Origin: Candidatus Woesearchaeota archaeon
GTDB taxonomy: Archaea > Nanobdellota > Nanobdellia > Woesearchaeales > UBA10216
Reading direction: 5' to 3'
DNA: 64,000 nucleotides
Assembly (NCBI GenBank): GCA_016185705.1
Contig: JACPMZ010000007.1
Location: 107,157-171,156, forward strand
The translations under genes were made by a program, and so were the position numbers. Positions 12,966 through 24,511 of this stretch are shown here, one piece after another (the stretch's first letter is position 1; each line of letters begins with the position of its first letter). Under the pieces are notes generated by a model. It was not told where the DNA came from. It searched no databases and worked only from the letters and a program-made list of their open reading frames with translations.

Positions 12966-14255
12966 ATGCCAGAATTTATGAGTGTTATCCCAGTAACCAT
13001 TAAGGAAATGCAACGAGATTCTACATGGGACTTTGCTACTGCTGATACTAAGGAATTTACTCATTGCTTCCATTCTTATCCTGCCATGATGATTCCACAA
13101 GTTGCTAGAAAAATGCTGAAAATTTATGGGAAACAGGATAGCTCACTCATTGACCCTTTTATGGGTAGCGGCTCGGTTCTTGTTGAAGGGATGCTACACG
13201 AACCTATCACTAGCGCTTATGGATTAGATATAAATCCTTTGGCTATTTTAATAGCAAAAACTAAAACTACACCAATCAAACCGCAACTTTTGGAAAACAC
13301 GTTTTCTAAAATTTTGTCTGAATTTGATAAAAAAAAGAACACTGATCTTGGTTTCTATAATCTAACTAACATTAAATACTGGTTTAAAGAGCAAGCTATT
13401 AATGACTTATCCAGACTTAAAAGTTCAATTGATGAGGTAGATAACGGCAAGATTAAAAATTTCTTTCTGGTTTGTTTTTCAGAAACAACTCGTAAAGTAT
13501 CAAATACCCGTCCAGGTGAATTCAAGCTATACCGGATTAATGAAAAGAAGTTAGCCAATTATTTGCCAAATACCCTTGAGGTATTTACCCATGTTGTTAA
13601 GCGCAATATCAAAGGTATGCACTCATTTTATAGCGCATTCAACTATTTAGACAAAAAAACTGCCATAAATATTTACAAGGAAGACAGCCGAACAAAGACG
13701 TCAATCCCTTCGGAATCTTGTGACATTTTGGTGACTTCACCACCATACGGAGATTCAAGAACCACTGTAGCTTATGGGCAGTACAGCAGATTAAGCTCGC
13801 AATTATTGGGATATTCTTATGACGAAATAAGGCGGGTGGACCAGAACGGTTTAGGAGGAAAGCGCTCATATAAAGAAAACAATCTTGATTCGCCGCACCT
13901 GCAATCTGCATTGGATAAAATATCTGCGGCTGATGAAATTCGTGCTTTAGATGTGCTTGCTTTTTATGAAGATTTCAATAAGTGCATAACCGAAATAGAT
14001 CGTATTATGAAACCTAATTCACATCTTTGTTTTGTTGTCGGCAACAGAACTGTCAAAGGAGTAAAAATCCTAACTAACGCCATAATCGCAGAATTGTTTG
14101 AGTCTAGAGAAAACTATTCTCATTTGAAAACGATAATCAGAAAAATACCAAATAAGAAAATGCCTAAAATCAATAGTCCAACTAACGTAAAAGGCGTTAC
14201 AGGGCAAACAATGGATGAAGAATACCTCCTAATTCTTAAAAAGCTTAATTGCTAA
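12966..14255 (+). CDS. DNA methyltransferase of a type II R-M system, probably N4-cytosine-specific (motif I DPFMGSGS, motif IV TSPPYGD)
   Basis: FxGxG before SPPY with about 170 aa between them (alpha-class order); strong SD TAAGGAGGT; low-GC island. Confidence 0.8.
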   Translation: MPEFMSVIPVTIKEMQRDSTWDFATADTKEFTHCFHSYPAMMIPQVARKMLKIYGKQDSSLIDPFMGSGSVLVEGMLHEPITSAYGLDINPLAILIAKTKTTPIKPQLLENTFSKILSEFDKKKNTDLGFYNLTNIKYWFKEQAINDLSRLKSSIDEVDNGKIKNFFLVCFSETTRKVSNTRPGEFKLYRINEKKLANYLPNTLEVFTHVVKRNIKGMHSFYSAFNYLDKKTAINIYKEDSRTKTSIPSESCDILVTSPPYGDSRTTVAYGQYSRLSSQLLGYSYDEIRRVDQNGLGGKRSYKENNLDSPHLQSALDKISAADEIRALDVLAFYEDFNKCITEIDRIMKPNSHLCFVVGNRTVKGVKILTNAIIAELFESRENYSHLKTIIRKIPNKKMPKINSPTNVKGVTGQTMDEEYLLILKKLNC

Positions 14256-14537
14256 GACGGGCTGTGTTGAAAACCTCGCTTCCAGTAACTTTGCCAGTCC
14301 GCTGCCTTTTCATCTTCCCCTAATTTTTAAGGGGAGATGAAAAGGCAGCGGTTGAAAATGTAAGAATCGTGGAAGCGATATGTCACATTTTCAACAGAGT
14401 CTGATAAGACGGTACTTACTCAACTGAACTTTTATCCTCAGCGCATATATCCACCCTCCCTTAACTTTCGTAGGGAGGAGGAAATAGAGCGCAGTTGTGA
14501 GCAAGCGAAGTTGAGCAATGCAGGTACTATAAGAAAA

Positions 14538-15245
14538 CTACATTATCTGTTTTCTATGGCTGAAGCATAATTCCAACTTATCTGGAAGCACTCTAAATGC
14601 GGTGCCGTGATCGTGCGTTCTTCCGTTAGAATACTGGCCAATTCTGATATCAACCATTATTGTCCCTTCTTTCAGAAGGTTTAAAAAATTTTCAAAATCA
14701 AAGCCATTCAATAGCCAAGTTTCGTTAAACCAAAACATCTCTTGTTTACCGTCCCCGTTTACATCTGCTTTTACGTACATCAGTCTTGGAAGCTTTCGCT
14801 CAAAAGATTCTCTTAAAGTATTTTTGTCCCAATAACCAAATGATTTCCCATCTGGCGTCACTAGCTCTATTTTGTTGGTACTAATTTTAATCTTAAATCC
14901 TGGTTTGCCTTTCAAATTATTGAAATCAACAGCATTTACTGTTGAATGCAACTTCTTTTTGTTATTGCCTTTTGCAGATGGATAACCAAATTGTTTCAGC
15001 AACAAAGAATTAGCCTTTGGCGGCAAGGGAGATTTTGTAAACAGAGTAAGCAAGCTCTTAGTGTGCTTCCTAGTAGACTTAAGCTCAAGCATTAGACCAT
15101 TTGGGCCAGGCACATTATTTTCCTTTATTTTCAGTTCATCCTCCAAAGTTTTTCCAATACCAGTATTTCCAGCTCTATGCGTCTTAATATATCCCAAATC
15201 TTTAAGTCGCTTCAAATCCTGCACAAGCGCAGCATAACCGATCAT
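14538..15245 (-). CDS. Type II restriction endonuclease, MvaI/BcnI-like (from-memory resemblance)
   Basis: Convergent partner of the MTase; segments GNTGIGKTLEDELKIKENNV, LLTLFTKSP, HDHGTAFRV resemble BcnI/MvaI as recalled. Confidence 0.5.
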   Translation of the reverse strand: MIGYAALVQDLKRLKDLGYIKTHRAGNTGIGKTLEDELKIKENNVPGPNGLMLELKSTRKHTKSLLTLFTKSPLPPKANSLLLKQFGYPSAKGNNKKKLHSTVNAVDFNNLKGKPGFKIKISTNKIELVTPDGKSFGYWDKNTLRESFERKLPRLMYVKADVNGDGKQEMFWFNETWLLNGFDFENFLNLLKEGTIMVDIRIGQYSNGRTHDHGTAFRVLPDKLELCFSHRKQIM

Positions 15246-16193: not shown

Positions 16194-16295
16194 GCCCCTA
16201 TCGTTATGCAGAGGTATTTAAAGTTTTGTCCACTCCAAACACCCGATAACTTATACGTAAACATAACAAACTATTTAAACAATTCTTCAGCGCCT

Positions 16296-19200
16296 ATGCG
16301 TATGGCTGAGTTTCCACGCGAATACGATTTCAAAAAGATAGAGGAAGAGATGTCTGCTTTCTGGGATGCTGAAAAAATAGCTGAGGAAACGATAAAGCTG
16401 GATGAAAGCAGGCCGCTGTTTTCTTTCCTTGAGGGGCCGCCGACTGCCAATGCGCCTCCGGGGCTGCATCACGTGCAGAGCAGGTTTTACAAGGATTTGG
16501 TGTGCAGGTTCAACTACATGAAAGGGTTTTCTGTGCCGCGGAAGGGCGGGTGGGACTGCCACGGGCTGCCTGTTGAAGTGCAGGTTGAGAAAAAGCTCGG
16601 GCTGAAGACAAAAAAGGATGTTCTGAACTACGGAATAGGAAATTTCAATGAGCTGTGCAGGAAAGACGTTTTTACGTTCATCAAGGATTGGGACAAATTA
16701 ACAAAGCGGATGGCGTTCTGGATTGACATTGAAAACCCTTATGTTACGCTTACAAATGAATACATTGAAAGCGTATGGTGGAGTCTTAAGGAGCTGTACG
16801 GCAAAAAGCTGCTGTACGAGGACCACAAGGTTGTTCCTTACTGCCCGAGATGCGAGACGCCATTAAGCAGCCATGAAGTTGCATTGGGTTATAATGACGT
16901 AACAGAGGACACAATAACTACAAAATTCAAGCTTAAAGATGAAGACAGGTATTTGCTTGCCTGGACTACAACGCCGTGGACTACGCCGAGCAACATAGGG
17001 CTTGCTGTGGGGAAAGATATTGTTTACGTCGTTGTTGAGAAAGAGGGGGTTCAGTACATTCTTGCAAAGGCTGCCGCTGAACGATACTTTACAGAGCCGG
17101 TTATAATTCAGGAGATGGCAGGCGATGAGCTGGTTGGAAAAGAATATGTTCCGCTATTTGACTATTTTGTCGGAAAGCTGGACAAGCCTGCGTGGAGAAT
17201 AGTGGCAGCAGACTACGTTAACACAGAAGAAGGAACAGGCGTCGTGCACCAGGCGCCAGCATTTGGAGAGGAAGATTATGAAACAATAAAAAAGGAAGGG
17301 ATGGCTTTCGTGCAGCCAGTGGACCAAAGCGGCAGGTTCACGAAAGAGGTAAGCGATTTTGAAGGAATGTTTGTGAAGGACGCTGACCCTGAAATTATTG
17401 CAATGCTTGAGAAAAACAACGCGCTTTTCAGTAAAGAAAAGTACACGCACAGCTATCCGTTCTGCTGGCGATGCGACACGCCGCTGCTGTACTATGCGCT
17501 GAAGTCGTGGTTTGTGAAGGTAACTGCAGCCAAGGAACGGCTTATTGAGCTCAATCAGCAGATAAAATGGTATCCTGAGCACATAAGGGACGGCAGGTTT
17601 GGCGAATGGCTGCGAAACGTCAAAGACTGGGCACTAAGCAGGAACAAGTTCTGGGGAACGCCGCTGCCAATATGGAAATGCAGCTGCGGGAAAACTACAG
17701 CGATTGGCAGCAGGGAAGAGCTTGAGGCAGCGTCTGAACGGGATATAAAGGAGCTTGACCTCCATAAGCCGGCTATTGATGAAATAACCATTGACTGCAG
17801 CTGCGGAAAGAAAATGAATCGCGTTCCTTATGTTATTGACACGTGGTATGACTCGGGAGCTGCAGCCTTTGCGCAACTGCATTATCCGTTTGAGAACAAG
17901 GCGCTGTTCAGAAAACTTTTTCCGTACTCATTCATCACAGAGTCTATTGACCAGACCCGCGGCTGGTTTTACACGCTGCATGCACTGGGAACGCTGCTGT
18001 TTGACACATATGCGTACAAATCAGTCGTTGTCGGAGGCCTGCTTGTTGATGAGAAAGGCGAGAAGATGAGCAAAAGCAAAGGCAACACCCTAAACCCGTT
18101 TGATGTTTTTGATAAAATTGGCGTAGATGCTGTGCGGCTGCAGCTGTGCAGCAGCTCTCCGGATAACACAAAGCGCTTTGGGTATGAGCTTGTCAAGGAA
18201 AATGTTTTTCCATTCATGACAACGCTTTGGAACGTGTGCGTTTTCGCCAACAACCGTGCGGGCAGCGAAGGCGTAACAAAACTAAGGGCAGAAGACAAAT
18301 GGCTTATTTCCAGGACGAACACTTTGCTGCAAAAATTCACGCAGGAATTCGAGGCAAACAACTACCACCGCTGCTATGAGGAGCTCAAGTGGTTTGTGGT
18401 AGAGGACTTATCAAGGTGGTATATACGGCTTGTCAGAGAGAGAACTGACGATGCAGTGAGCGACACGCTGAGTTATGCGATTGGAATAATTGCAAAGCTG
18501 CTGGCCCCGTATGCGCCGTACATGGCCGAATACATCTACCTCAAACTGGTGCGGGATGAGGCGAAGAGCGTGCACCACTGCGCATGGCCGCAGGTGGAGA
18601 AAATTGACGCTGACCTGGAGAAAAAAATGAGCACTGCAAGGGCAATAGGCCAAGCCATACTGTCATTAAGGGAAAAAATAAACCGCGGGATAAGATGGCC
18701 CATCAAGCAGGCGGTGATAGCCGCCGAGGACCAGCTGGCAGGCGAAGTGATTGCACAGCTGGGACCTCTAATCGTCCATCAGACCAATGTCAAGAAGCTG
18801 ACTGTGCAGAAAGAATTCACAGAGGCAAAAGTGAAAATCAAGCCGGACTACGCAAAGCTCGGCCCTGTCTACGGAGAGGCAACGCCGAAAATAATCGCGC
18901 ATTTTACAATGAAAGGCCACGATGCGATACTGAAAAGATTAGCTGAGGACGGACACTACGATATGGGCATAGACGGCAAACAGTACAGGCTTGAACGCGA
19001 CCACTTTATTTTCACAACAGAGCTTCCTGACAAGTACGACTCTGCGGATTTCGGCATGGGAGCCGTATACATAGACAAGGAGCTGACTCCGGAAATGGAA
19101 GCAGAAGGGCTTTCCAGAGAGCTCATCCGGCTGATACAGCAGTCCAGAAAAGAAAAAAGCCTGGAAAAAACAGACGCGGTCAGCATCATCGTGAGAGCTG

Positions 19201-19379
19201 ACCCCGAAACAAAGCAAAAACTGCAGCCCCACTGCCTCCAAATAAAAAGCAGGGTAGGAGCGAAGCAGCTGGAAATAACCGATGCACCGCAGGAAAGCGC
19301 AAATCTTGAGTTAGTCAAGGTTCATACGATAAGAAACAGGAAGTTTGAGGTATTTTTCGCAAAAACTACTTTTTTGTGA
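16296..19379 (+). CDS. ileS: Isoleucine--tRNA ligase
   Basis: Class I aaRS HIGH-type region (GLHHVQS), KMSKS motif, editing domain; about 1030 aa. Confidence 0.95.
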   Translation: MRMAEFPREYDFKKIEEEMSAFWDAEKIAEETIKLDESRPLFSFLEGPPTANAPPGLHHVQSRFYKDLVCRFNYMKGFSVPRKGGWDCHGLPVEVQVEKKLGLKTKKDVLNYGIGNFNELCRKDVFTFIKDWDKLTKRMAFWIDIENPYVTLTNEYIESVWWSLKELYGKKLLYEDHKVVPYCPRCETPLSSHEVALGYNDVTEDTITTKFKLKDEDRYLLAWTTTPWTTPSNIGLAVGKDIVYVVVEKEGVQYILAKAAAERYFTEPVIIQEMAGDELVGKEYVPLFDYFVGKLDKPAWRIVAADYVNTEEGTGVVHQAPAFGEEDYETIKKEGMAFVQPVDQSGRFTKEVSDFEGMFVKDADPEIIAMLEKNNALFSKEKYTHSYPFCWRCDTPLLYYALKSWFVKVTAAKERLIELNQQIKWYPEHIRDGRFGEWLRNVKDWALSRNKFWGTPLPIWKCSCGKTTAIGSREELEAASERDIKELDLHKPAIDEITIDCSCGKKMNRVPYVIDTWYDSGAAAFAQLHYPFENKALFRKLFPYSFITESIDQTRGWFYTLHALGTLLFDTYAYKSVVVGGLLVDEKGEKMSKSKGNTLNPFDVFDKIGVDAVRLQLCSSSPDNTKRFGYELVKENVFPFMTTLWNVCVFANNRAGSEGVTKLRAEDKWLISRTNTLLQKFTQEFEANNYHRCYEELKWFVVEDLSRWYIRLVRERTDDAVSDTLSYAIGIIAKLLAPYAPYMAEYIYLKLVRDEAKSVHHCAWPQVEKIDADLEKKMSTARAIGQAILSLREKINRGIRWPIKQAVIAAEDQLAGEVIAQLGPLIVHQTNVKKLTVQKEFTEAKVKIKPDYAKLGPVYGEATPKIIAHFTMKGHDAILKRLAEDGHYDMGIDGKQYRLERDHFIFTTELPDKYDSADFGMGAVYIDKELTPEMEAEGLSRELIRLIQQSRKEKSLEKTDAVSIIVRADPETKQKLQPHCLQIKSRVGAKQLEITDAPQESANLELVKVHTIRNRKFEVFFAKTTFL

Positions 19380-20307
19380 TTGCGTAGACGTAAGTAGCGT
19401 AAATTCTGGACGGCTTGAATTTCTGCTTGAACTGCAGCAGCGGCTTTGGGCTTCCGCCAAAGTCAACCTCGCTGTATCCCATTTTTTTCAGTGTTACAAG
19501 ATCATTCCAGTTGGCATACTCGCCAAGGCATTCTATCCTGCTGTCATAAATGCCAACCGCCGAATAATATGCGCCTAAAGCGTTGGGAACATTCCAGCCG
19601 GCGGTGATGCTCGCAACTTTGCCGTCCACCAAAACACTTTTGGCAAGATTGCAGCCTGCAAAATCCAGGTCAATGAATTTATTGTAAAAATCAGTATCAG
19701 TATAGTTTGAGTTTTTGCGGTGTACATAGTATCCTGTAACCCTGCGGCGCAGCTTCCATTCCTCCACAACAGCCTTTAGGTCATCCTTCTCCACGCTGCT
19801 GCTGTCCACAATTCTAATCCTGTGCGACTTCCTGAACCTGTTGAGAATGTTTCTCATCTTCTTCCACAGCCCGCCCCGGAGCTTATCCCCCTCCCAGCCA
19901 GTCATATCGTAAACAGGCCAATACAAAACGCAGTTTGGATCGCTTATTTTGTAAGATGAACTGACAGCATCGTCAACAATTTTTTTCCTGTCCATAGTAA
20001 GCTCGGCAACAAACTTGTTCAGCTTTCTTTTCTGCTTCAGAAAATCCAGTGCTTCCCTGACCAGCTGCGCCTGCTGGGCTTCCGGCGCAAGCGGAGCGCC
20101 AATCATGCTCCATTTTTTTGCAGCAGCGTTATTTATTGTAAGAAGGCCGTATTTACCTTCCCTAATGTAGATGCACTCATCACCCTTTAGTTCAACGGCA
20201 TTATGCGCAAGATAGTAGCCGAAATTATGCTCAGGAGCGCTGCCATAGGCTGCAACAGCGCTTTCTATCAGCCTGCGTTCGCTTTCAATGTCTTCAATCA
20301 GCTCCAT
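19366..20307 (-). CDS. DUF2156 / MprF C-terminal-like (aminoacyl-tRNA-dependent transferase fold) protein, paralog 1
   Basis: 313 aa; C-terminal VDFGGSP...FKQKFKP motif resembles LPG-synthase C domain; 3' end overlaps ileS by 14 nt. Confidence 0.5.
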   Translation of the reverse strand: MELIEDIESERRLIESAVAAYGSAPEHNFGYYLAHNAVELKGDECIYIREGKYGLLTINNAAAKKWSMIGAPLAPEAQQAQLVREALDFLKQKRKLNKFVAELTMDRKKIVDDAVSSSYKISDPNCVLYWPVYDMTGWEGDKLRGGLWKKMRNILNRFRKSHRIRIVDSSSVEKDDLKAVVEEWKLRRRVTGYYVHRKNSNYTDTDFYNKFIDLDFAGCNLAKSVLVDGKVASITAGWNVPNALGAYYSAVGIYDSRIECLGEYANWNDLVTLKKMGYSEVDFGGSPKPLLQFKQKFKPSRIYATYVYAITKK

Positions 20308-21235
20308 TTTTCACCAGCGAATAACTTTTTTTTATCAGATGCGGCCTGTACGACCTCTTTATGCGCTCAAGGTACTTAACGTCCCAGTCCTCGCCTGCGT
20401 TGACGTACTCACAGTCAAACAGCTTCATAAGCTCGCCGTAGATAAATACTGAAAGCCCCTTGATGCGCAGGTTTGTCTTCTCAAAAAAATCCGTGCAGAT
20501 TATGCTGCTTGTTCGCTCTGCAAAGCTGTAGCCCTGCACCTTGCCGTCAACCAGCACAACCACGCCTTTAAGGCCAAGCGTGTTTGCAAGCTCCAGCGCT
20601 CTTTCATTGGCGGCAACCTCTGCATCAAGCTTCTCCACGTCAGCATCCTCAATTGTTTCGAGTTTCTGCTCTTTCCAGCGGTGAAGCAAATCAAGGCAGC
20701 CTGCCCTGTGCCTGCCAGCGTTGTACTGCTCAACAGCGCAGGAATAGTTTTTCATAAAATAATTTTTAAGATTCCTCTTGCTCTTATAACTGTCTCCTTT
20801 AAGCTCAATGATGTCTGTCCTTTTGTATATGTAGTCCTGGTTCTGCTCCTGCAGCTTAAAGCCGCTGAGGTTTGCGTATGCGTCCTTAAGCTCCTCAGGA
20901 ATGTACATCATGGCAGGATTTTCCGGAATCCCGCGCTCTGCGTTGTAATCCTCGCACATGCTGAAGCACCTGCCCAGAGTGTCAGCGAGCTTTTTTCCGG
21001 GAACAACGGGCCCCCAGATGCAGCGTTTGCCCTCAAAAGTCAGGAACAGGCACAGATTGCCGTTTATCAAAGCCCATTCCATTTCGCCATAACAGCCATC
21101 CCACAGATAAAGCCACGCAAAGCTGTGCTCCGCCAAAGGAAACTGAAGCGAGCCATAAGCTTTGTCAAAAATTTTTTTGTCAGCTGGAGCGAGCTTTTGC
21201 ATTTGACTGAGTATTTGCATCTTTTTTGCCTTCAA
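20294..21235 (-). CDS. DUF2156 / MprF C-terminal-like protein, paralog 2
   Basis: 313 aa; VNAGEDWDVKYLERIKRSYRP C-terminal motif; tandem with paralog 1, 14-nt overlap. Confidence 0.5.
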   Translation of the reverse strand: MKAKKMQILSQMQKLAPADKKIFDKAYGSLQFPLAEHSFAWLYLWDGCYGEMEWALINGNLCLFLTFEGKRCIWGPVVPGKKLADTLGRCFSMCEDYNAERGIPENPAMMYIPEELKDAYANLSGFKLQEQNQDYIYKRTDIIELKGDSYKSKRNLKNYFMKNYSCAVEQYNAGRHRAGCLDLLHRWKEQKLETIEDADVEKLDAEVAANERALELANTLGLKGVVVLVDGKVQGYSFAERTSSIICTDFFEKTNLRIKGLSVFIYGELMKLFDCEYVNAGEDWDVKYLERIKRSYRPHLIKKSYSLVKNGAD

Positions 21236-21358
21236 AAAGCTTTTTTTGCGAAATGAGTTTTTATATTTTGCTATTTTTTGTAATGAAGCGATGAGAATTC
21301 TTTAAAGCTGCAGTTACCAAGGAACTGCTGCTGGCATCCGGCTACAACATAAATTGAA

Positions 21359-22243
21359 TCATTTGCAGTAGAATTCCCCAATCAGCTTGTAGACGAGCTT
21401 TGCAGCGGTGAAGTCAGGCGCATGCATTCCGGGTATGGGCATGAATTCCATGACATCAAAGCCAACAACTTTTTTTGCGGAAAGCTTTCTGAGAAATTTC
21501 AGCAGCGTAAACCAGTCAAAGCCGCCGGGCTGCGGAGTGCCGACAGCAGGCATGATGCCTGGATCCAGAGCATCGAGGTCAATTGTTAAGTAAACTATGT
21601 CAGAAAGCTTTGAAATTGCCTCGTCCATCCATCTGTCATCCTGCTTTGCGAGCGTTTCGTGCGCCCAGAATACCGGAATTTTTTCCTTTTCAATGAACTC
21701 TGCCTGGTCATCAGCAAGACTTCTTATGCCTGCAAGCACAACAGGGCACATCTCGTAGCAGCGGCGGGCCACGCAGCCGTGATCCCATTTGCTCCCCCCA
21801 TTCAGGTCTGCCATGTCAGCATGGGCATCAACATGCAGCACGCTTAAGCCGGGATACTTTTCCTTAAAAGCGCGCACAGCGCCGGAAGTGAGCGAGTGCT
21901 CGCCGCCCAGCATTACAAACTTTTTGCCGTCTTCAAGAATTTTTTTCGTTGATTCATAAACGCGATCTATCGTCTGCCTGGCGTCATCCATAATTTCCAG
22001 CTCGTCAAGCGTGCAAATGCCGACTTCAGAAAAATTCTTCTTTGATTCCTCGTCAAAGAACTCCACGACCCTTGACGCTTCAATGATTGCACGAGGCCCG
22101 TCCCTTGTTCCAGGCTTATATGAAGTTGTGCCGTCATAAGGCACAGGGAAAATCACAACTCCTGCCCTATCATAGTCCGCGAGTTCGTGCGGCAAGCCAC
22201 CAAAGTTGAAGGGAGCATAAAAATGCGGGTTTTTGACTGCCAT
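21359..22243 (-). CDS. speB: Agmatinase (arginase/ureohydrolase family)
   Basis: GGEHS, DAHAD, IDLDALDP Mn-binding motifs. Confidence 0.85.
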   Translation of the reverse strand: MAVKNPHFYAPFNFGGLPHELADYDRAGVVIFPVPYDGTTSYKPGTRDGPRAIIEASRVVEFFDEESKKNFSEVGICTLDELEIMDDARQTIDRVYESTKKILEDGKKFVMLGGEHSLTSGAVRAFKEKYPGLSVLHVDAHADMADLNGGSKWDHGCVARRCYEMCPVVLAGIRSLADDQAEFIEKEKIPVFWAHETLAKQDDRWMDEAISKLSDIVYLTIDLDALDPGIMPAVGTPQPGGFDWFTLLKFLRKLSAKKVVGFDVMEFMPIPGMHAPDFTAAKLVYKLIGEFYCK

Positions 22244-22274
22244 AAGAAAACAAATGTGCGCTCATTTATAAATT

Positions 22275-22727
22275 TTAATGCGCAGCAAGCCTTGAATATC
22301 TGACTCTTTCCCTGAATGCAATCTCAGCAGATTTCTCCGTGCTTCTTGGATAATGCTTTATGAATTCCCTTCCCCTGTTGATGAAATTCTTCTCCACTTT
22401 TACAGCGCCAAGCATCTTTGTCAGCAAATCAACTGCGTACTTTATGTCGAAATCCTTGCAGGAAAATATGTCAAAAGTTGCGTAACCGTCCTCCGGGAAG
22501 GTGTGGATTGCCATGTGGCTCTCAACCAAAATGACAAAGCCGGTAACTCCGCCGCGGTCGAACGAATCTATGCCCTGGGCTGGAACCGAGGTAACCTGCG
22601 GGTCAGAGAACTTACTCATGCCAAGCTTTTCAGGCATTTCATTAAGGACTCTTGTAACAAAGTGAGAATCTGCCAGCTTATTTCTGTCGCATCCATACAG
22701 GTCCATGGTCAGGTGCGGTCCAAACAT
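22275..22727 (-). CDS. speH: Pyruvoyl-dependent decarboxylase of the SpeH family (AdoMet decarboxylase or arginine decarboxylase paralog)
   Basis: VESHMAIHTFPE self-cleavage (ES) motif; about 150 aa. Confidence 0.75.
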   Translation of the reverse strand: MFGPHLTMDLYGCDRNKLADSHFVTRVLNEMPEKLGMSKFSDPQVTSVPAQGIDSFDRGGVTGFVILVESHMAIHTFPEDGYATFDIFSCKDFDIKYAVDLLTKMLGAVKVEKNFINRGREFIKHYPRSTEKSAEIAFRERVRYSRLAAH

Positions 22728-22887
22728 TTTATCATCATTTTGTTATAATTTTTCTACTATTAAGAATCAGTTCCCTCATCTCTTTTTGATTCATAAATTT
22801 TGTAAACATTGCAGTTGCAACAGTCATATTGCTGATGCCATTTATGAAGTATCTTATATTTAAACTTAACTGTTTTTCATATTACTT

Positions 22888-23793
22888 TCAGAAGAATTCG
22901 TTTACAGAAAGGACAAGCAGCGGGAAAATAATCTGGGCGTCTCCGTAAACTGTGACTGCTTTGCCCCTGACTTTTCCCCATGATTTTGCTTCAGAAGTCG
23001 TAGCGCCTGACAGCGAGCCGTGATACGGCGATGAGCTGTTAATGTATACTGCATAGTCAAGGCCGTTCAAAATGTTTGAAATAATAAGGTGATGCTTTGC
23101 TATTCCGCCGCCGAGAACAATGCCCAAAGTTTTTTCTGCTGCCATGCCCAACTCAAGCAATCTCGAGAAATCTTTTACGGCATCTATTTTAAAGTCAGGA
23201 TTTTTTTGCTGAAAAAAAGCAAGCTGCATGCCGAAAGCGCCGTCAGTTATGCCCGGACAAAAAATCGGGACGCTGTTTTTGCTTGCCCAGTGCAGCAGCG
23301 AGCCCTCGCTTCCAATTCTTTTGCCAATTTCAGAAATCAATTCCGAAACTGCAATATCTTTTTTAACAGCGTAAATTTCGCCGATAGCCTTTTCTGAAAA
23401 CTTTTCAAGGAATTCGTAGCGGTCATTGGGAACAAGTATGTTGCCCATCCTGTTAATGCCCCGGCTGCCCAATTCCTCGTCGTCAGACTCAAAACTGCCC
23501 TGCAGGTATGGCAGCTTGCTTCTGTTAATGTCCTCGTCAATGGTTCCGGAAGTCGTAATAATCGCGTCTACCTTCTTCCTCTTTACCAGGTCAACAAAAA
23601 CGCCGCGCAGGCCTGATGCTGCCATGTTGGAAGTGAAACTCAGAAATGTGAAAGCGTTGTTCTTCTTTGCCTCGGAAAGAATTTCAGCTGCCTCTCCCAT
23701 GTTCTGCGCCTGGAAACCTGAGTCCCTGAACTGCGCCACAAGGTCGGCAGCTTTCATGCCATTGGTTAATCGAATGTCCTTTATTTCTCTCAT
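22888..23793 (-). CDS. dys: Deoxyhypusine synthase
   Basis: Length and C-terminal SEAKSWGKV motif; NAD-binding glycine-rich segments. Confidence 0.9.
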   Translation of the reverse strand: MREIKDIRLTNGMKAADLVAQFRDSGFQAQNMGEAAEILSEAKKNNAFTFLSFTSNMAASGLRGVFVDLVKRKKVDAIITTSGTIDEDINRSKLPYLQGSFESDDEELGSRGINRMGNILVPNDRYEFLEKFSEKAIGEIYAVKKDIAVSELISEIGKRIGSEGSLLHWASKNSVPIFCPGITDGAFGMQLAFFQQKNPDFKIDAVKDFSRLLELGMAAEKTLGIVLGGGIAKHHLIISNILNGLDYAVYINSSSPYHGSLSGATTSEAKSWGKVRGKAVTVYGDAQIIFPLLVLSVNEFF

Positions 23794-24037: not shown

Positions 24038-24511
24038 ATGAAAGTAGTCGCTGAACAGCCGCTGGCTGAAATAATTCTGAGAAAATACGAGCTGCCTGAC
24101 CATATTAAAGAACGGGAGCTTGTGAAAAAGCTTTGCCTTTCCCTTGGCCTGCTGCAGCCGGGAGATTCGAGGGATGTTGTTGTTGATGTGCTGCACGTGC
24201 TGCTGAAAAACAGGAAAAGGCGAAAGCTGCTTACAGTGTCTGAGATAGAGAAAAAAGTTGTGCAGAACCGGAAGCTGCACAAAGTAGCTATGCTTGGAAT
24301 AGCGTCTTCCAATATACGGCGGCAAATCAAGCGCCTGAGGAACATGCTGATTGTTGAGAAAATCAGGACCGGCTACCGAATCAGCGAGTTCATGCCGATG
24401 CAGCAGCTCTTTGCAGAAAAAATACAGGGATTAATGCTGCCCAACATTGTGCAGCGAATAAACGGATATCTGCAAAGGGCTGATGATGTTTTCTCGGTGA
24501 AGAAGAACTGA
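24038..24511 (+). CDS. Hypothetical protein, possible winged-helix regulator
   Basis: 157 aa, helical; no firm family assignment. Confidence 0.4.
   Translation: MKVVAEQPLAEIILRKYELPDHIKERELVKKLCLSLGLLQPGDSRDVVVDVLHVLLKNRKRRKLLTVSEIEKKVVQNRKLHKVAMLGIASSNIRRQIKRLRNMLIVEKIRTGYRISEFMPMQQLFAEKIQGLMLPNIVQRINGYLQRADDVFSVKKN

What the first reader, a model, noticed from the sequence alone, without database searches (positions are those of the whole stretch)
19366..21235. Tandem DUF2156 (MprF C-terminal-like, aminoacyl-tRNA transferase fold) paralogs abutting and overlapping ileS
Two 313-aa paralogs lie head-to-tail with a 14-nt overlap. Their C-terminal motifs (VDFGGSP..LLQFKQKFKP and VNAGEDWDVKYLERIKRSYRP) resemble the lysyl-phosphatidylglycerol synthase C domain, which uses aminoacyl-tRNA as donor. 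The 3' end of paralog 1 overlaps the 3' end of isoleucyl-tRNA synthetase by 14 nt in convergent orientation. A duplicated aa-tRNA-dependent transferase next to an aaRS suggests aminoacylation of a lipid, peptide or small molecule. In archaea this family has no known function.
Basis: partly seen in the sequence, partly recalled or inferred. Interest (0 to 1): 0.55.

Follow-up and report, generated by a model that had tools for sequence, protein, structure and literature searches.

The report
DUF2156 transferase pair in polyamine cluster
Two very distantly related MprF-C/FemX-like transferase genes in a tiny symbiotic archaeon (Woesearchaeota) sit at the end of an arginine-to-agmatine polyamine gene cluster, and in relatives it is this cluster, not the neighbouring isoleucyl-tRNA synthetase gene, that stays linked to them, which suggests they attach amino acids (or acetyl groups) to polyamines.

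Summary
Two overlapping minus-strand genes (19366-20307 and 20294-21235) both adopt the DUF2156/MprF-C tandem-GNAT fold, and the downstream one overlaps the ileS stop by 14 nt. They are not recent paralogs: they share about 19% identity, and hhalign gives E 6e-6. The upstream gene (ORFB) is a clear PF09924 member, closest to PDB 2HQY. The downstream gene (ORFA) belongs to a small, divergent family found mostly in DPANN archaea, and on its own it scores below the Pfam cutoff.

The ileS adjacency is confined to one Woesearchaeota clade. A second clade has ORFB directly upstream of leuS. The link that recurs is with polyamine genes: a SpeD-like pyruvoyl decarboxylase (shown to be an arginine decarboxylase in Woesearchaeota), agmatinase or AguA/AguB, and deoxyhypusine synthase. 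Many metagenomic loci show tightly spaced cassettes such as SpeDA>ORFA'>agmatinase>ORFA''.

My best reading (inferred) is two sequential N-acylations of an agmatine-derived amine, probably using aminoacyl-tRNA as donor. Acetyl-CoA is a serious rival donor, because 2HQY reportedly carries acetyl-CoA. No paper in the searched library links DUF2156 to polyamines. I rate this a new variant of a known kind; it can be tested by co-expression and LC-MS.

The parts
19366..20307 (-). ORFA: a free-standing, divergent DUF2156-like tandem-GNAT transferase (313 aa). It belongs to clade II of a small family found mostly in DPANN archaea.
20294..21235 (-). ORFB: a free-standing DUF2156 (PF09924) tandem-GNAT transferase of the 2HQY/BT_3689 subfamily. 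Its stop overlaps the ORFA start by 14 nt. The likely true start is ATG 21220 or ATG 21202.
21259..21266 (-). An AT-rich TATA-like element (ATATAAAA), about 27 nt upstream of the TTG and 42 nt upstream of the first ATG of ORFB. It could be a separate promoter for the ORFB-ORFA pair.
   Evidence: Direct reading only. This is a consensus resemblance, not evidence of function.
21359..22243 (-). Agmatinase-family ureohydrolase (SpeB-like), on the same strand directly upstream of ORFB.
   Evidence: Pfam Arginase at 233 bits. TIGR01230 agmatinase at 241 bits against a cutoff of 174.
22275..22727 (-). SpeD-like pyruvoyl-dependent decarboxylase, most likely an arginine decarboxylase (SpeDA).
   Evidence: Pfam AdoMet_dc at 100 bits. 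TIGR03330 at 94 bits. The Ser/His/Cys processing triad spacing (S, S+5, S+20) was read from the translation, against the description in PMC10407285. [quoted passage not shown]
22888..23793 (-). Deoxyhypusine synthase homolog (DHS/SpeY-like), the first gene of the same-strand cluster.
   Evidence: Pfam DS at 323.5 bits. NCBIfam DHS models score 331.8 and 290.9 bits, just under their equivalog cutoffs.
16206..19379 (+). ileS, the convergent neighbour whose stop overlaps the ORFA stop by 14 nt. Listed as context; I do not consider it part of the functional unit.
   Evidence: TIGR00392 ileS at 854.8 bits. The adjacency is restricted to one clade.

Best explanation
ORFB and ORFA are two anciently diverged, soluble, free-standing members of the DUF2156 (MprF-C/FemX-like tandem-GNAT) acyl-transfer superfamily in a Candidatus Woesearchaeota (DPANN) genome. 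They form a translationally coupled pair at the 3' end of a same-strand cluster for arginine-derived amines: deoxyhypusine synthase homolog, SpeD-like arginine decarboxylase, agmatinase.

Proposed mechanism (inferred, not shown): the decarboxylase makes agmatine. A first transferase (ORFB here; ORFA clade I, a Ddl-like ATP-grasp ligase or an Acetyltransf_6-like protein in other lineages) acylates a free primary amine. The ureohydrolase (or AguA/AguB) removes the guanidino 'mask' to expose a second primary amine. That could happen on agmatine itself or, after DHS/SpeY-type coupling, on bis(guanidino)homospermidine. A second transferase (ORFA, clade II) acylates the newly exposed amine. As in every biochemically characterised PF09924 enzyme, I take the most likely acyl donor to be an aminoacyl-tRNA, which would give aminoacyl-polyamine conjugates.

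Sub-claim confidence: fold and homology about 0.97. Functional linkage to the agmatine/polyamine module about 0.8. N-acylation of a pathway amine about 0.6. Aminoacyl-tRNA rather than acetyl-CoA as donor about 0.5.

For: Basic helix: the K-x-x-R-N-x-x-N helix between the GNAT halves is conserved, with a mean of 6.6-6.8 K/R in 21 residues across both families. This helix is the tRNA acceptor-stem binding feature common to aa-tRNA transferases (PMC6103681; PMC8913301).

Context:
- Of 51 ORFA-family loci with at least 5 genes, 25 have a polyamine gene within two genes, and 40 have either that or a Ddl-like/Acetyltransf_6 gene.
- In clade I, 18 members sit directly after the SpeD-like gene and 3 directly after a DHS-like gene, out of 22 that can be assessed.
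- The arrangements vary: SpeDA>A'>SpeB>A'' (L054-56, L060, L067, L071/72, L078, L116, L119); SpeDA>DHS>A'>SpeB>A''>AT6 with 15-154 nt gaps (L091); SpeDA>A' with convergent AguA+AguB instead of SpeB (L075, L082, L083, L115); SpeDA>Ddl>A'' (L106, L115); SpeDA>AT6>A'' (L085).
- The swap of SpeB for AguA/AguB points to agmatine chemistry.
- Filling of slot 1 by an ATP-grasp amino-acid ligase favours an aminoacyl group over an acetyl group.
- The link recurs in bacteria: an ORFB homolog lies next to a SpeD-like gene in Pyrinomonadales (L044) and next to a PLP Orn/Arg decarboxylase in Ignavibacteriales (L043).

Literature: a Woesearchaeota SpeD homolog is an arginine decarboxylase clustered with speY and speB (PMC10407285). 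SpeY couples two agmatines, and SpeB/AguA homologs then unmask the product (PMC13625781), which is a precedent for the guanidino-as-protecting-group logic. Sbb17 is a precedent for a structurally similar aa-tRNA-dependent enzyme with an amine-bearing substrate (it was crystallised with streptothrisamine; PDB 9WQX).

Weak support for an aa-tRNA donor: ORFB lies directly upstream of leuS in a second Woesearchaeota synteny type, and ORFA abuts ileS here.
Against: There is no biochemical evidence of any kind. The acceptor and the donor are both inferred from gene context and fold.

ORFB's closest solved relative, BT_3689 (2HQY), is reported to hold acetyl-CoA in its active site. An H. pylori DUF2156 protein contributes to lysine acetylation of RNase J (PMC10700544). 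The donor could therefore be acetyl-CoA.

The loci are not phylogenetically independent, and several are near-duplicates, so the raw counts overstate the number of independent events.

About a fifth of the larger ORFA loci show neither polyamine genes nor other ligase genes nearby. The pair in a Patescibacteria genome has no polyamine genes nearby (L125). ORFB in the leuS-type synteny also lacks them.

A TATA-like element upstream of ORFB may mean the pair is transcribed separately from the polyamine genes.

Gene order need not equal reaction order.
Confidence: 0.4

Rival explanations
1. The pair are acetyl-CoA (or other acyl-CoA) dependent N-acetyltransferases. They acetylate the polyamines made by the adjacent cluster for homeostasis or export, as SpeG/SSAT do, or they acetylate protein lysines. 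On this reading tRNA is not involved.
Confidence: 0.25
2. One reading: these are aa-tRNA-dependent transferases functionally coupled to the neighbouring IleRS, working as flippase-less MprF/ErgS-like enzymes that aminoacylate a membrane lipid (for example archaetidylglycerol) or another small molecule.
For: DUF2156 fold and basic helix. Free-standing DUF2156 enzymes can modify membrane lipids (ErgS; PMC8913301). aaRS genes abut the pair in two synteny types: ileS here and leuS elsewhere. Isoprenoid genes lie about 5 kb away in the window.
Against: ileS adjacency is limited to one clade and the overlap is not conserved. Two adjacency events among roughly ten arrangement types is only marginally above chance for genomes in which about 2% of genes are aaRS genes (my estimate, p about 0.06). 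There is no flippase domain or TM segment. No sequence-level match to MprF structures was found. This reading leaves the pervasive linkage to SpeDA, SpeB, AguAB and DHS unexplained.
Confidence: 0.12
3. The acceptor is a protein amine made by the same cluster. The pair would acylate the terminal amine of the (deoxy)hypusine side chain of aIF5A, or another lysine. This would be an archaeal analogue of EF-P beta-lysylation or of hypusine acetylation by SSAT1.
For: DHS is the first gene of the cluster here. It lies directly upstream of ORFB in L012 and of ORFA clade I in L091, L101, L110 and L113. DHS-agmatinase-ADC clustering has been linked to aIF5A deoxyhypusination in archaea (PMC5178350 abstract). 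SET-domain lysine methyltransferase genes flank ORFA in several loci.
Against: Most cassettes contain SpeDA and SpeB but no DHS nearby. No aIF5A gene was detected among the conserved neighbours that were scanned. The Patescibacteria pair occurs without DHS. The hypusine-acetylation and EF-P analogies come from my own knowledge and were not tested here.
Confidence: 0.1
4. The linkage is inherited synteny in compact DPANN genomes and carries no functional meaning. On this reading the proteins have an unrelated role.
For: DPANN genomes are gene-dense, and unrelated genes are often packed on one strand. Many of the loci are related by descent.
Against: The association persists through rearrangements, gene replacements (SpeB versus AguA/AguB; A' versus Ddl versus AT6 versus ORFB) and inversions (L049, L050, L074). 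It also recurs in two bacterial phyla.
Confidence: 0.05

Closest known systems
BT_3689 of Bacteroides thetaiotaomicron (PDB 2HQY) and H. pylori HPB8_1270: free-standing bacterial DUF2156 proteins
   Different: The function of that subfamily is itself unsettled: it is reported to bind acetyl-CoA, and there is genetic evidence for protein acetylation. It is bacterial. No polyamine gene context has been reported for it. ORFA shows no sequence-level match.
MprF / aminoacyl-phosphatidylglycerol synthase C-terminal domain (PF09924)
   Different: No N-terminal flippase or membrane domain and no TM segment. No sequence-level hit to MprF structures. The gene context is polyamine genes rather than lipid or virulence genes.
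Fungal ErgS (free-standing DUF2156, Gly-tRNA:ergosterol glycyltransferase) and ErdS (AspRS-DUF2156 fusion)
   Same: ErgS is a free-standing DUF2156 that uses aa-tRNA made in trans by a separate aaRS (PMC8913301).
   Different: Those enzymes are eukaryotic and act on sterols. Here there is no fusion to an aaRS, only adjacency to ileS or leuS in some clades.
Sbb17 (PDB 9WQX), FemX/FemA: aa-tRNA-dependent transferases
   Different: No detectable sequence similarity. Their contexts are antibiotic or peptidoglycan biosynthesis. The FemA coiled-coil insertion is absent.
Agmatine-dependent polyamine clusters: SpeDA-SpeY(DHS homolog)-SpeB or AguA/AguB
   Same: The window genes at 21359-23793 are this module. 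A Woesearchaeota SpeDA was validated as an arginine decarboxylase. SpeY makes bis(guanidino)homospermidine, which SpeB/AguA homologs then unmask.
   Different: I found no mention of DUF2156-like genes in the parts of those papers I searched. The link between the two families appears unreported in the searched library.
SpeG/SSAT-type polyamine N-acetyltransferases
   Same: GNAT-fold enzymes that N-acylate polyamine primary amines. This is the functional analogue if the donor is acetyl-CoA.

Membership tests
DUF2156 / LPG_synthase_C (PF09924) | Pfam HMM score above the gathering threshold - ORFB | tested here: met
   91.7 bits against a cutoff of 27.5, covering residues 36-305 and profile positions 10-295 of 298.
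DUF2156 / LPG_synthase_C (PF09924) | Pfam HMM score above the gathering threshold - ORFA | tested here: inconclusive
   25.2 bits, below the cutoff of 27.5, covering residues 60-187 only. However, 26 of 27 family members match at E<=0.01, best 1.2e-10. hhalign to the ORFB family gives 85% probability and E 6e-6.
DUF2156 / LPG_synthase_C (PF09924) | Two GNAT domains in tandem (structure) | tested here: met
DUF2156 / LPG_synthase_C (PF09924) | Positively charged helix between the GNAT halves (tRNA acceptor-stem binding) | tested here: met
   Helix 146-161 in ORFA (WKKMRNILNRFRKSH) and helix 137-152 in ORFB (YKSKRNLKNYFMKNY). Mean of 6.6-6.8 K/R per 21 residues across the families, with K/R/N positions invariant. 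Role of the helix as described in PMC6103681 and PMC8913301.
DUF2156 / LPG_synthase_C (PF09924) | Aminoacyl-tRNA-dependent transfer activity | not testable with these tools
   Requires an enzyme assay. The reported acetyl-CoA in 2HQY leaves the donor open.
MprF (bifunctional aaPGS-flippase) | N-terminal integral-membrane flippase domain fused to the synthase domain | tested here: not met
   The proteins are 302-313 aa. The maximum 19-residue hydropathy is 0.96 and 1.22, below a TM threshold of about 1.6. No flippase gene was detected among the neighbours that were scanned.
MprF (bifunctional aaPGS-flippase) | Sequence-level similarity to solved MprF synthase domains | tested here: not met
   Profile searches of the PDB with both families return no MprF chain, even at E<=10. 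Similarity is structural only.
2HQY/BT_3689-like free-standing DUF2156 | Full-length sequence and structural similarity to BT_3689 | tested here: met
FemXAB (PF02388) | Pfam FemAB match, with peptidoglycan-precursor context | tested here: not met
aaRS-DUF2156 fusions (ErdS, LysX) | Covalent fusion to an aminoacyl-tRNA synthetase | tested here: not met
   ileS is on the opposite strand and convergent, with only a 14-nt 3' overlap. leuS is a separate downstream gene in the other synteny type.
Agmatine-dependent polyamine/deoxyhypusine module (context) | Pyruvoyl SpeD-like decarboxylase, agmatinase-family ureohydrolase and DHS homolog clustered together | tested here: met
   AdoMet_dc 100 bits, Arginase 233 bits, DS 323.5 bits. 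TIGR01230 agmatinase is above its cutoff. The processing Ser/His/Cys spacing is conserved (one search read). Arginine-decarboxylase activity itself is not testable here; it is inferred from PMC10407285 and from the SpeB-to-AguA/AguB swap.

The most novel reading that the evidence does not exclude
DPANN archaea (and some Patescibacteria) may carry a previously unrecognised tRNA-dependent pathway that makes aminoacyl-polyamines. Agmatine would be aminoacylated on its free amine by one DUF2156-like transferase. The guanidino group would then be removed by agmatinase or AguA/AguB. A second DUF2156-like transferase would aminoacylate the newly exposed amine, giving bis(aminoacyl)putrescine or bis(aminoacyl)homospermidine. 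The donor might be a branched-chain aminoacyl-tRNA, as the leuS and ileS adjacency faintly hints. This would add polyamines to the known acceptor classes of DUF2156 enzymes (glycerolipids and sterols). It would also reveal a new metabolite class in organisms with minimal genomes.
Probability: 0.25. Interest if true: 0.8.

Novelty: new variant of a known kind. Interest (0 to 1): 0.6.

Why it matters
DUF2156 enzymes are known for rerouting aminoacyl-tRNA to membrane lipids: MprF in bacterial antimicrobial-peptide resistance, and ErdS/ErgS in fungi. If the archaeal pair decorates polyamines, that would add a new acceptor class and a new role for aa-tRNA outside translation.

It would also assign a first function to DUF2156-like genes in archaea. 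And it would help explain why genome-reduced DPANN symbionts keep two large tandem-GNAT genes tied to one of the few biosynthetic modules seen in these loci.

If the donor is acetyl-CoA instead, the result would still help settle what the 2HQY-like free-standing DUF2156 subfamily does. It would also extend the recently described agmatine-dependent homospermidine/deoxyhypusine pathways.

The prediction needs only four or five genes expressed in E. coli and polyamine LC-MS, methods already used by the laboratory that characterised SpeDA and SpeY.

Tried and rejected
1. Recent tandem duplication: rejected. BLASTP E is 0.044, and the two genes are related only at profile level with 19% identity.

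2. Functional coupling to ileS: downgraded. The adjacency is limited to one clade and the overlap is not conserved.

3. MprF membership: rejected. There is no flippase domain, no TM segment and no sequence hit to MprF structures.

4. Whether the Acetyltransf_6 neighbour (about 293 aa) is homologous to ORFA or ORFB: a single-sequence hhalign against both profiles was uninformative, at about 1% probability. A Patescibacteria copy does hit both PF13480 and PF09924 weakly, so the relationship stays tentative.

5. PDB sequence search with the ORFA profile found nothing meaningful.

6. Searches for LeuRS, GluRS, Ddl-like, AguA, Acetyltransf_6, CxxCxxCC and Lit homologs elsewhere in the window found none.

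7. Literature searches for DUF2156 together with agmatine or polyamine, and for tRNA-dependent polyamine conjugates, found no prior report. A review of aa-tRNA-dependent natural-product enzymes does not mention polyamines.

8. The AFDB fold library was unavailable.

9. The supplement of PMC10407285 holds no sequences, so identity to the validated Woesearchaeota SpeDA (PIN80235) could not be computed. The 'gamma' proline said to separate AdoMetDC from ADC could not be located without the figure.

10. I considered a role in tRNA-Ile agmatidine formation, since agmatine supply sits next to ileS. I set it aside because GNAT-type acyl transfer does not fit that chemistry. It was not tested.
Full report
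**Observation.** The ORF list confirms two minus-strand ORFs, 19366-20307 (ORFA, ATG start, 313 aa) and 20294-21235 (ORFB, TTG start, 313 aa). It also confirms a plus-strand 1057-aa ileS at 16206-19379 (TIGR00392, 854.8 bits). Direct reading confirms both 14-nt overlaps: ORFB stop with ORFA start, and ORFA stop with ileS stop in convergent orientation. ORFB homologs are 298-308 aa, so ATG 21220 or ATG 21202 is the more likely start. The exact ORFA protein is on record as a hypothetical protein of a Candidatus Woesearchaeota MAG. Close homologs of both proteins are Woesearchaeota.

**Are they DUF2156 paralogs?** ORFB is a full-length PF09924 match (91.7 bits against a cutoff of 27.5). ORFA is sub-threshold (25.2 bits, residues 60-187), but 26 of 27 ORFA-family members match PF09924 at E<=0.01. 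BLASTP between the two is insignificant (E 0.044). Profile-profile comparison gives 85% probability, E 6e-6, and 19% identity over 250 collinear columns. So they are ancient relatives, not a recent duplication. ORFB is closer to Brocadiaceae proteins (30-34% identity) than to ORFA.

Both families keep a basic helix between the GNAT halves, with 6.6-6.8 K/R per 21 residues and the motif K-x-x-R-N-x-x-N. Neither has a TM segment. This helix is described as the common tRNA acceptor-stem binding element of aa-tRNA transferases (PMC6103681; PMC8913301).

The ORFA family is very small. An exhaustive HMM search finds 196 representative clusters among 1.84 billion. Named members are Woesearchaeota, Aenigmarchaeota and one Patescibacteria MAG.

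**Neighbourhood: the aaRS link is weak.** ORFB occurs in two synteny types in Woesearchaeota.
- Type 1 is [DHS]-SpeD-like-agmatinase-ORFB-ORFA, convergent with ileS. It occurs in the window and in L007, L008, L010, L047, L048, L127/128, L129 and L130.
- Type 2 has ORFB alone, directly upstream and co-directional with leuS, in a conserved block TP_methylase...ORFB-leuS-ApbA-NAD kinase. It occurs in L001/2/9, L005, L006, L131 and L011.

Beyond the clade with about 42% or more identity to ORFA, ileS is absent from more than 60 ORFA-family loci. The 14-nt overlap is not conserved. By my rough estimate, two aaRS adjacency events among about ten arrangement types is only marginally more than chance (p about 0.06, assuming about 2% of genes are aaRS genes).

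**Neighbourhood: the polyamine link is strong.** On the same strand directly upstream of ORFB lie three genes:
- an agmatinase (TIGR01230, 241 bits against a cutoff of 174);
- a SpeD-like pyruvoyl decarboxylase with the processing Ser/His/Cys spacing intact;
- a deoxyhypusine synthase homolog.

A metagenome scan with the ORFA profile returned 78 loci. ORFA-family genes there are repeatedly interleaved with these same families:
- SpeD-like>ORFA'>agmatinase>ORFA'' in L054-56, L060, L067, L071/72, L078, L098, L116 and L119;
- SpeD-like>DHS-like>ORFA'>agmatinase>ORFA''>Acetyltransf_6 with gaps of 15-154 nt in L091;
- SpeD-like>ORFA'>agmatinase in L122-124;
- DHS-like>ORFA' in L101, L110 and L113.

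In loci that lack agmatinase, a Porphyromonas-type agmatine deiminase plus a CN-hydrolase (AguA/AguB) lie convergent just downstream (L073, L075, L082, L083, L115).

Of the 51 loci with at least 5 genes, 25 have a polyamine gene within two genes. Forty have either that or a Ddl-like ATP-grasp or Acetyltransf_6 gene.

A neighbour-joining tree splits the family in two. In clade I, 18 members sit directly after the SpeD-like gene and 3 after a DHS-like gene, out of 22 that can be assessed. Clade II includes the window ORFA. Its members follow agmatinase, ORFB, a Ddl-like ligase (13 loci) or an Acetyltransf_6 gene.

The slot after the decarboxylase is filled interchangeably by clade I, by a Ddl-like ATP-grasp ligase (L106, L115) or by an Acetyltransf_6/DUF2156-like protein (L085).

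The association also recurs in bacteria. An ORFB homolog lies next to a SpeD-like gene in a Pyrinomonadales MAG (L044), and next to a PLP Orn/Arg decarboxylase, a B12-radical-SAM gene and a formyltransferase in an Ignavibacteriales MAG (L043).

The loci are not independent and several are near-duplicates. Even so, the variety of arrangements, gene replacements and inversions (L049, L050, L074) argues for selection on linkage rather than inherited synteny.

**What the upstream module does.** Li et al. 2023 (PMC10407285) showed that SpeD homologs in genomes lacking SpeE are often arginine decarboxylases (SpeDA). Their set includes a Ca. Woesearchaeota protein clustered with speY (a DHS homolog) and speB. 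Li et al. 2026 (PMC13625781) showed that bacterial SpeY couples two agmatines into N1,N9-bis(guanidino)homospermidine. SpeB or AguA homologs then convert this to homospermidine. The authors ask whether archaeal DHS proteins are also agmatine-dependent. DHS-agmatinase-ADC clustering in archaea has also been tied to aIF5A deoxyhypusination (PMC5178350 abstract).

The window DHS scores best against archaeal DHS models (331.8 bits, cutoff 350). It scores only 128 bits against the bis(guanidino) synthase model. Whether it serves aIF5A, homospermidine or both is open.

**Mechanism (inferred).** Three elements recur: a decarboxylase that makes agmatine, an enzyme that removes the guanidino group, and two amide-forming enzymes. 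At least one of those two is always an ORFA-family tandem-GNAT. This fits two sequential N-acylations of an agmatine-derived di- or triamine, with the ureohydrolase unmasking the second amine. Guanidino-as-protecting-group logic of this kind is already established for the bis(guanidino)homospermidine route to homospermidine.

For the donor I favour aminoacyl-tRNA, for four reasons:
- every characterised PF09924 enzyme uses it;
- the tRNA-type basic helix is conserved;
- an amino-acid-ligating ATP-grasp enzyme can occupy the same slot;
- leuS or ileS abut the genes in two synteny types.

Sbb17 gives a structural precedent: it is an aa-tRNA-dependent peptide synthase crystallised with streptothrisamine (PDB 9WQX).

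**The main rival.** PMC10700544 states that BT_3689 (2HQY), ORFB's closest solved relative, contains acetyl-CoA in its active site. It also reports that deleting the H. pylori DUF2156 gene hpb8_1270 partly lowers acetylation of RNase J lysines. The pair could therefore be polyamine (or protein) N-acetyltransferases. I cannot separate the two donors computationally, and 2HQY itself keeps the basic helix.

**Comparison with the known and novelty.** ORFB is a member of PF09924 and of the 2HQY-like free-standing subfamily. ORFA is a divergent branch recognisable by profile and fold. Neither is an MprF (no flippase domain, no sequence-level match to MprF structures), a Fem protein, or an aaRS fusion.

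Full-text searches found no paper that links DUF2156 with agmatine or polyamines, or tRNA-dependent transfer with polyamine conjugates. I found no mention of these genes in the parts of the polyamine-cluster papers I searched.

I classify the finding as a new variant of a known kind: known fold and family, with a new and well-supported genomic association that predicts a new acceptor class.

**Verdict.** The DUF2156 assignment is supported. The ileS-centred interpretation is not. The better-supported story is a two-transferase module attached to agmatine/polyamine metabolism in DPANN archaea. All functional steps are inferred. Interest 0.6.

Noticed in passing
window 12966-15245: A putative restriction-modification pair: an N6/N4 DNA methylase (12966-14255, +) and an MvaI/BcnI-family restriction endonuclease (14538-15245, -). 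It sits in the lowest-GC stretch of this part of the window (0.39-0.41 against about 0.46-0.48), which suggests a horizontally acquired island.
   Followed up: partly
L001:8984-11821 versus L005:8976-11468, L006:5830-8325, L131:7958-10426: In the conserved block ORFB-leuS-ApbA-NAD kinase, the leuS gene is archaeal-type (TIGR00395, 964 bits) in one Woesearchaeota lineage and bacterial-type (TIGR00396, about 970-1020 bits) in others, at the same position. This looks like in-situ displacement of an aaRS by a xenolog.
   Followed up: partly
L014-L046 (e.g. L014:6146-7634): Anammox Brocadiaceae and other Planctomycetota carry ORFB homologs (29-34% identity). In 17 loci these are immediately followed by a small GNAT acetyltransferase (150-189 aa). 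The flanking genes are housekeeping genes (GAPDH, PGK, ADP-glucose pyrophosphorylase-like).
   Followed up: partly
L125:7277-9822 and L126 (Patescibacteria MAG): A CPR bacterium (the locus also has YceG, FtsA and MnmA) carries SET-domain>ORFA-like>Acetyltransf_6/PF09924-like genes with overlapping ends and no polyamine genes nearby. The two-transferase module therefore also exists outside archaea.
   Followed up: partly
L050, L105, L121 (SET); L122/L123:9825-10574 (class I SAM methyltransferase): SET-domain or SAM-dependent methyltransferase genes repeatedly flank ORFA-family genes within the polyamine cassettes. This hints at N-methylation as a further decoration of the same amine substrate.
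   Followed up: no
window 24038-24511 (+): A 157-aa ORF with no Pfam hit lies about 245 nt from the DHS gene start on the opposite strand, so the two are divergently oriented. Homologs were clustered next to the polyamine cluster in L047 and L049. Unannotated genes of similar size (152-157 aa) lie just upstream of SpeDA in L127 and L130; their homology to it was not tested. The sequence looks like a winged-helix regulator by eye, but this was not tested.
   Followed up: no
L054, L071, L072, L078, L081, L096, L112, L116, L119: In the SpeDA>A'>SpeB>A'' lineage a GluRS gene lies convergent two genes downstream of ORFA''. It is separated by two conserved, low-complexity ORFs with no informative Pfam match (about 160-200 aa and about 112 aa). 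This is a third aaRS near these transferases and is possibly coincidental.
   Followed up: no
L055, L060, L067, L071, L091, L119 and others, upstream of SpeDA: A conserved upstream string runs NYN-domain > two unknown ORFs > Lit-like membrane protein (PF07314) > SpeDA. The Lit-like gene is directly upstream of SpeDA in 14 loci. Its role is unknown.
   Followed up: no
window 21259-21266 (-): An ATATAAAA element lies in the 123-156 nt gap between agmatinase and ORFB, about 27 nt upstream of the TTG at 21235. It may be an archaeal TATA box that gives the ORFB-ORFA pair its own, possibly leaderless, transcript.
   Followed up: no
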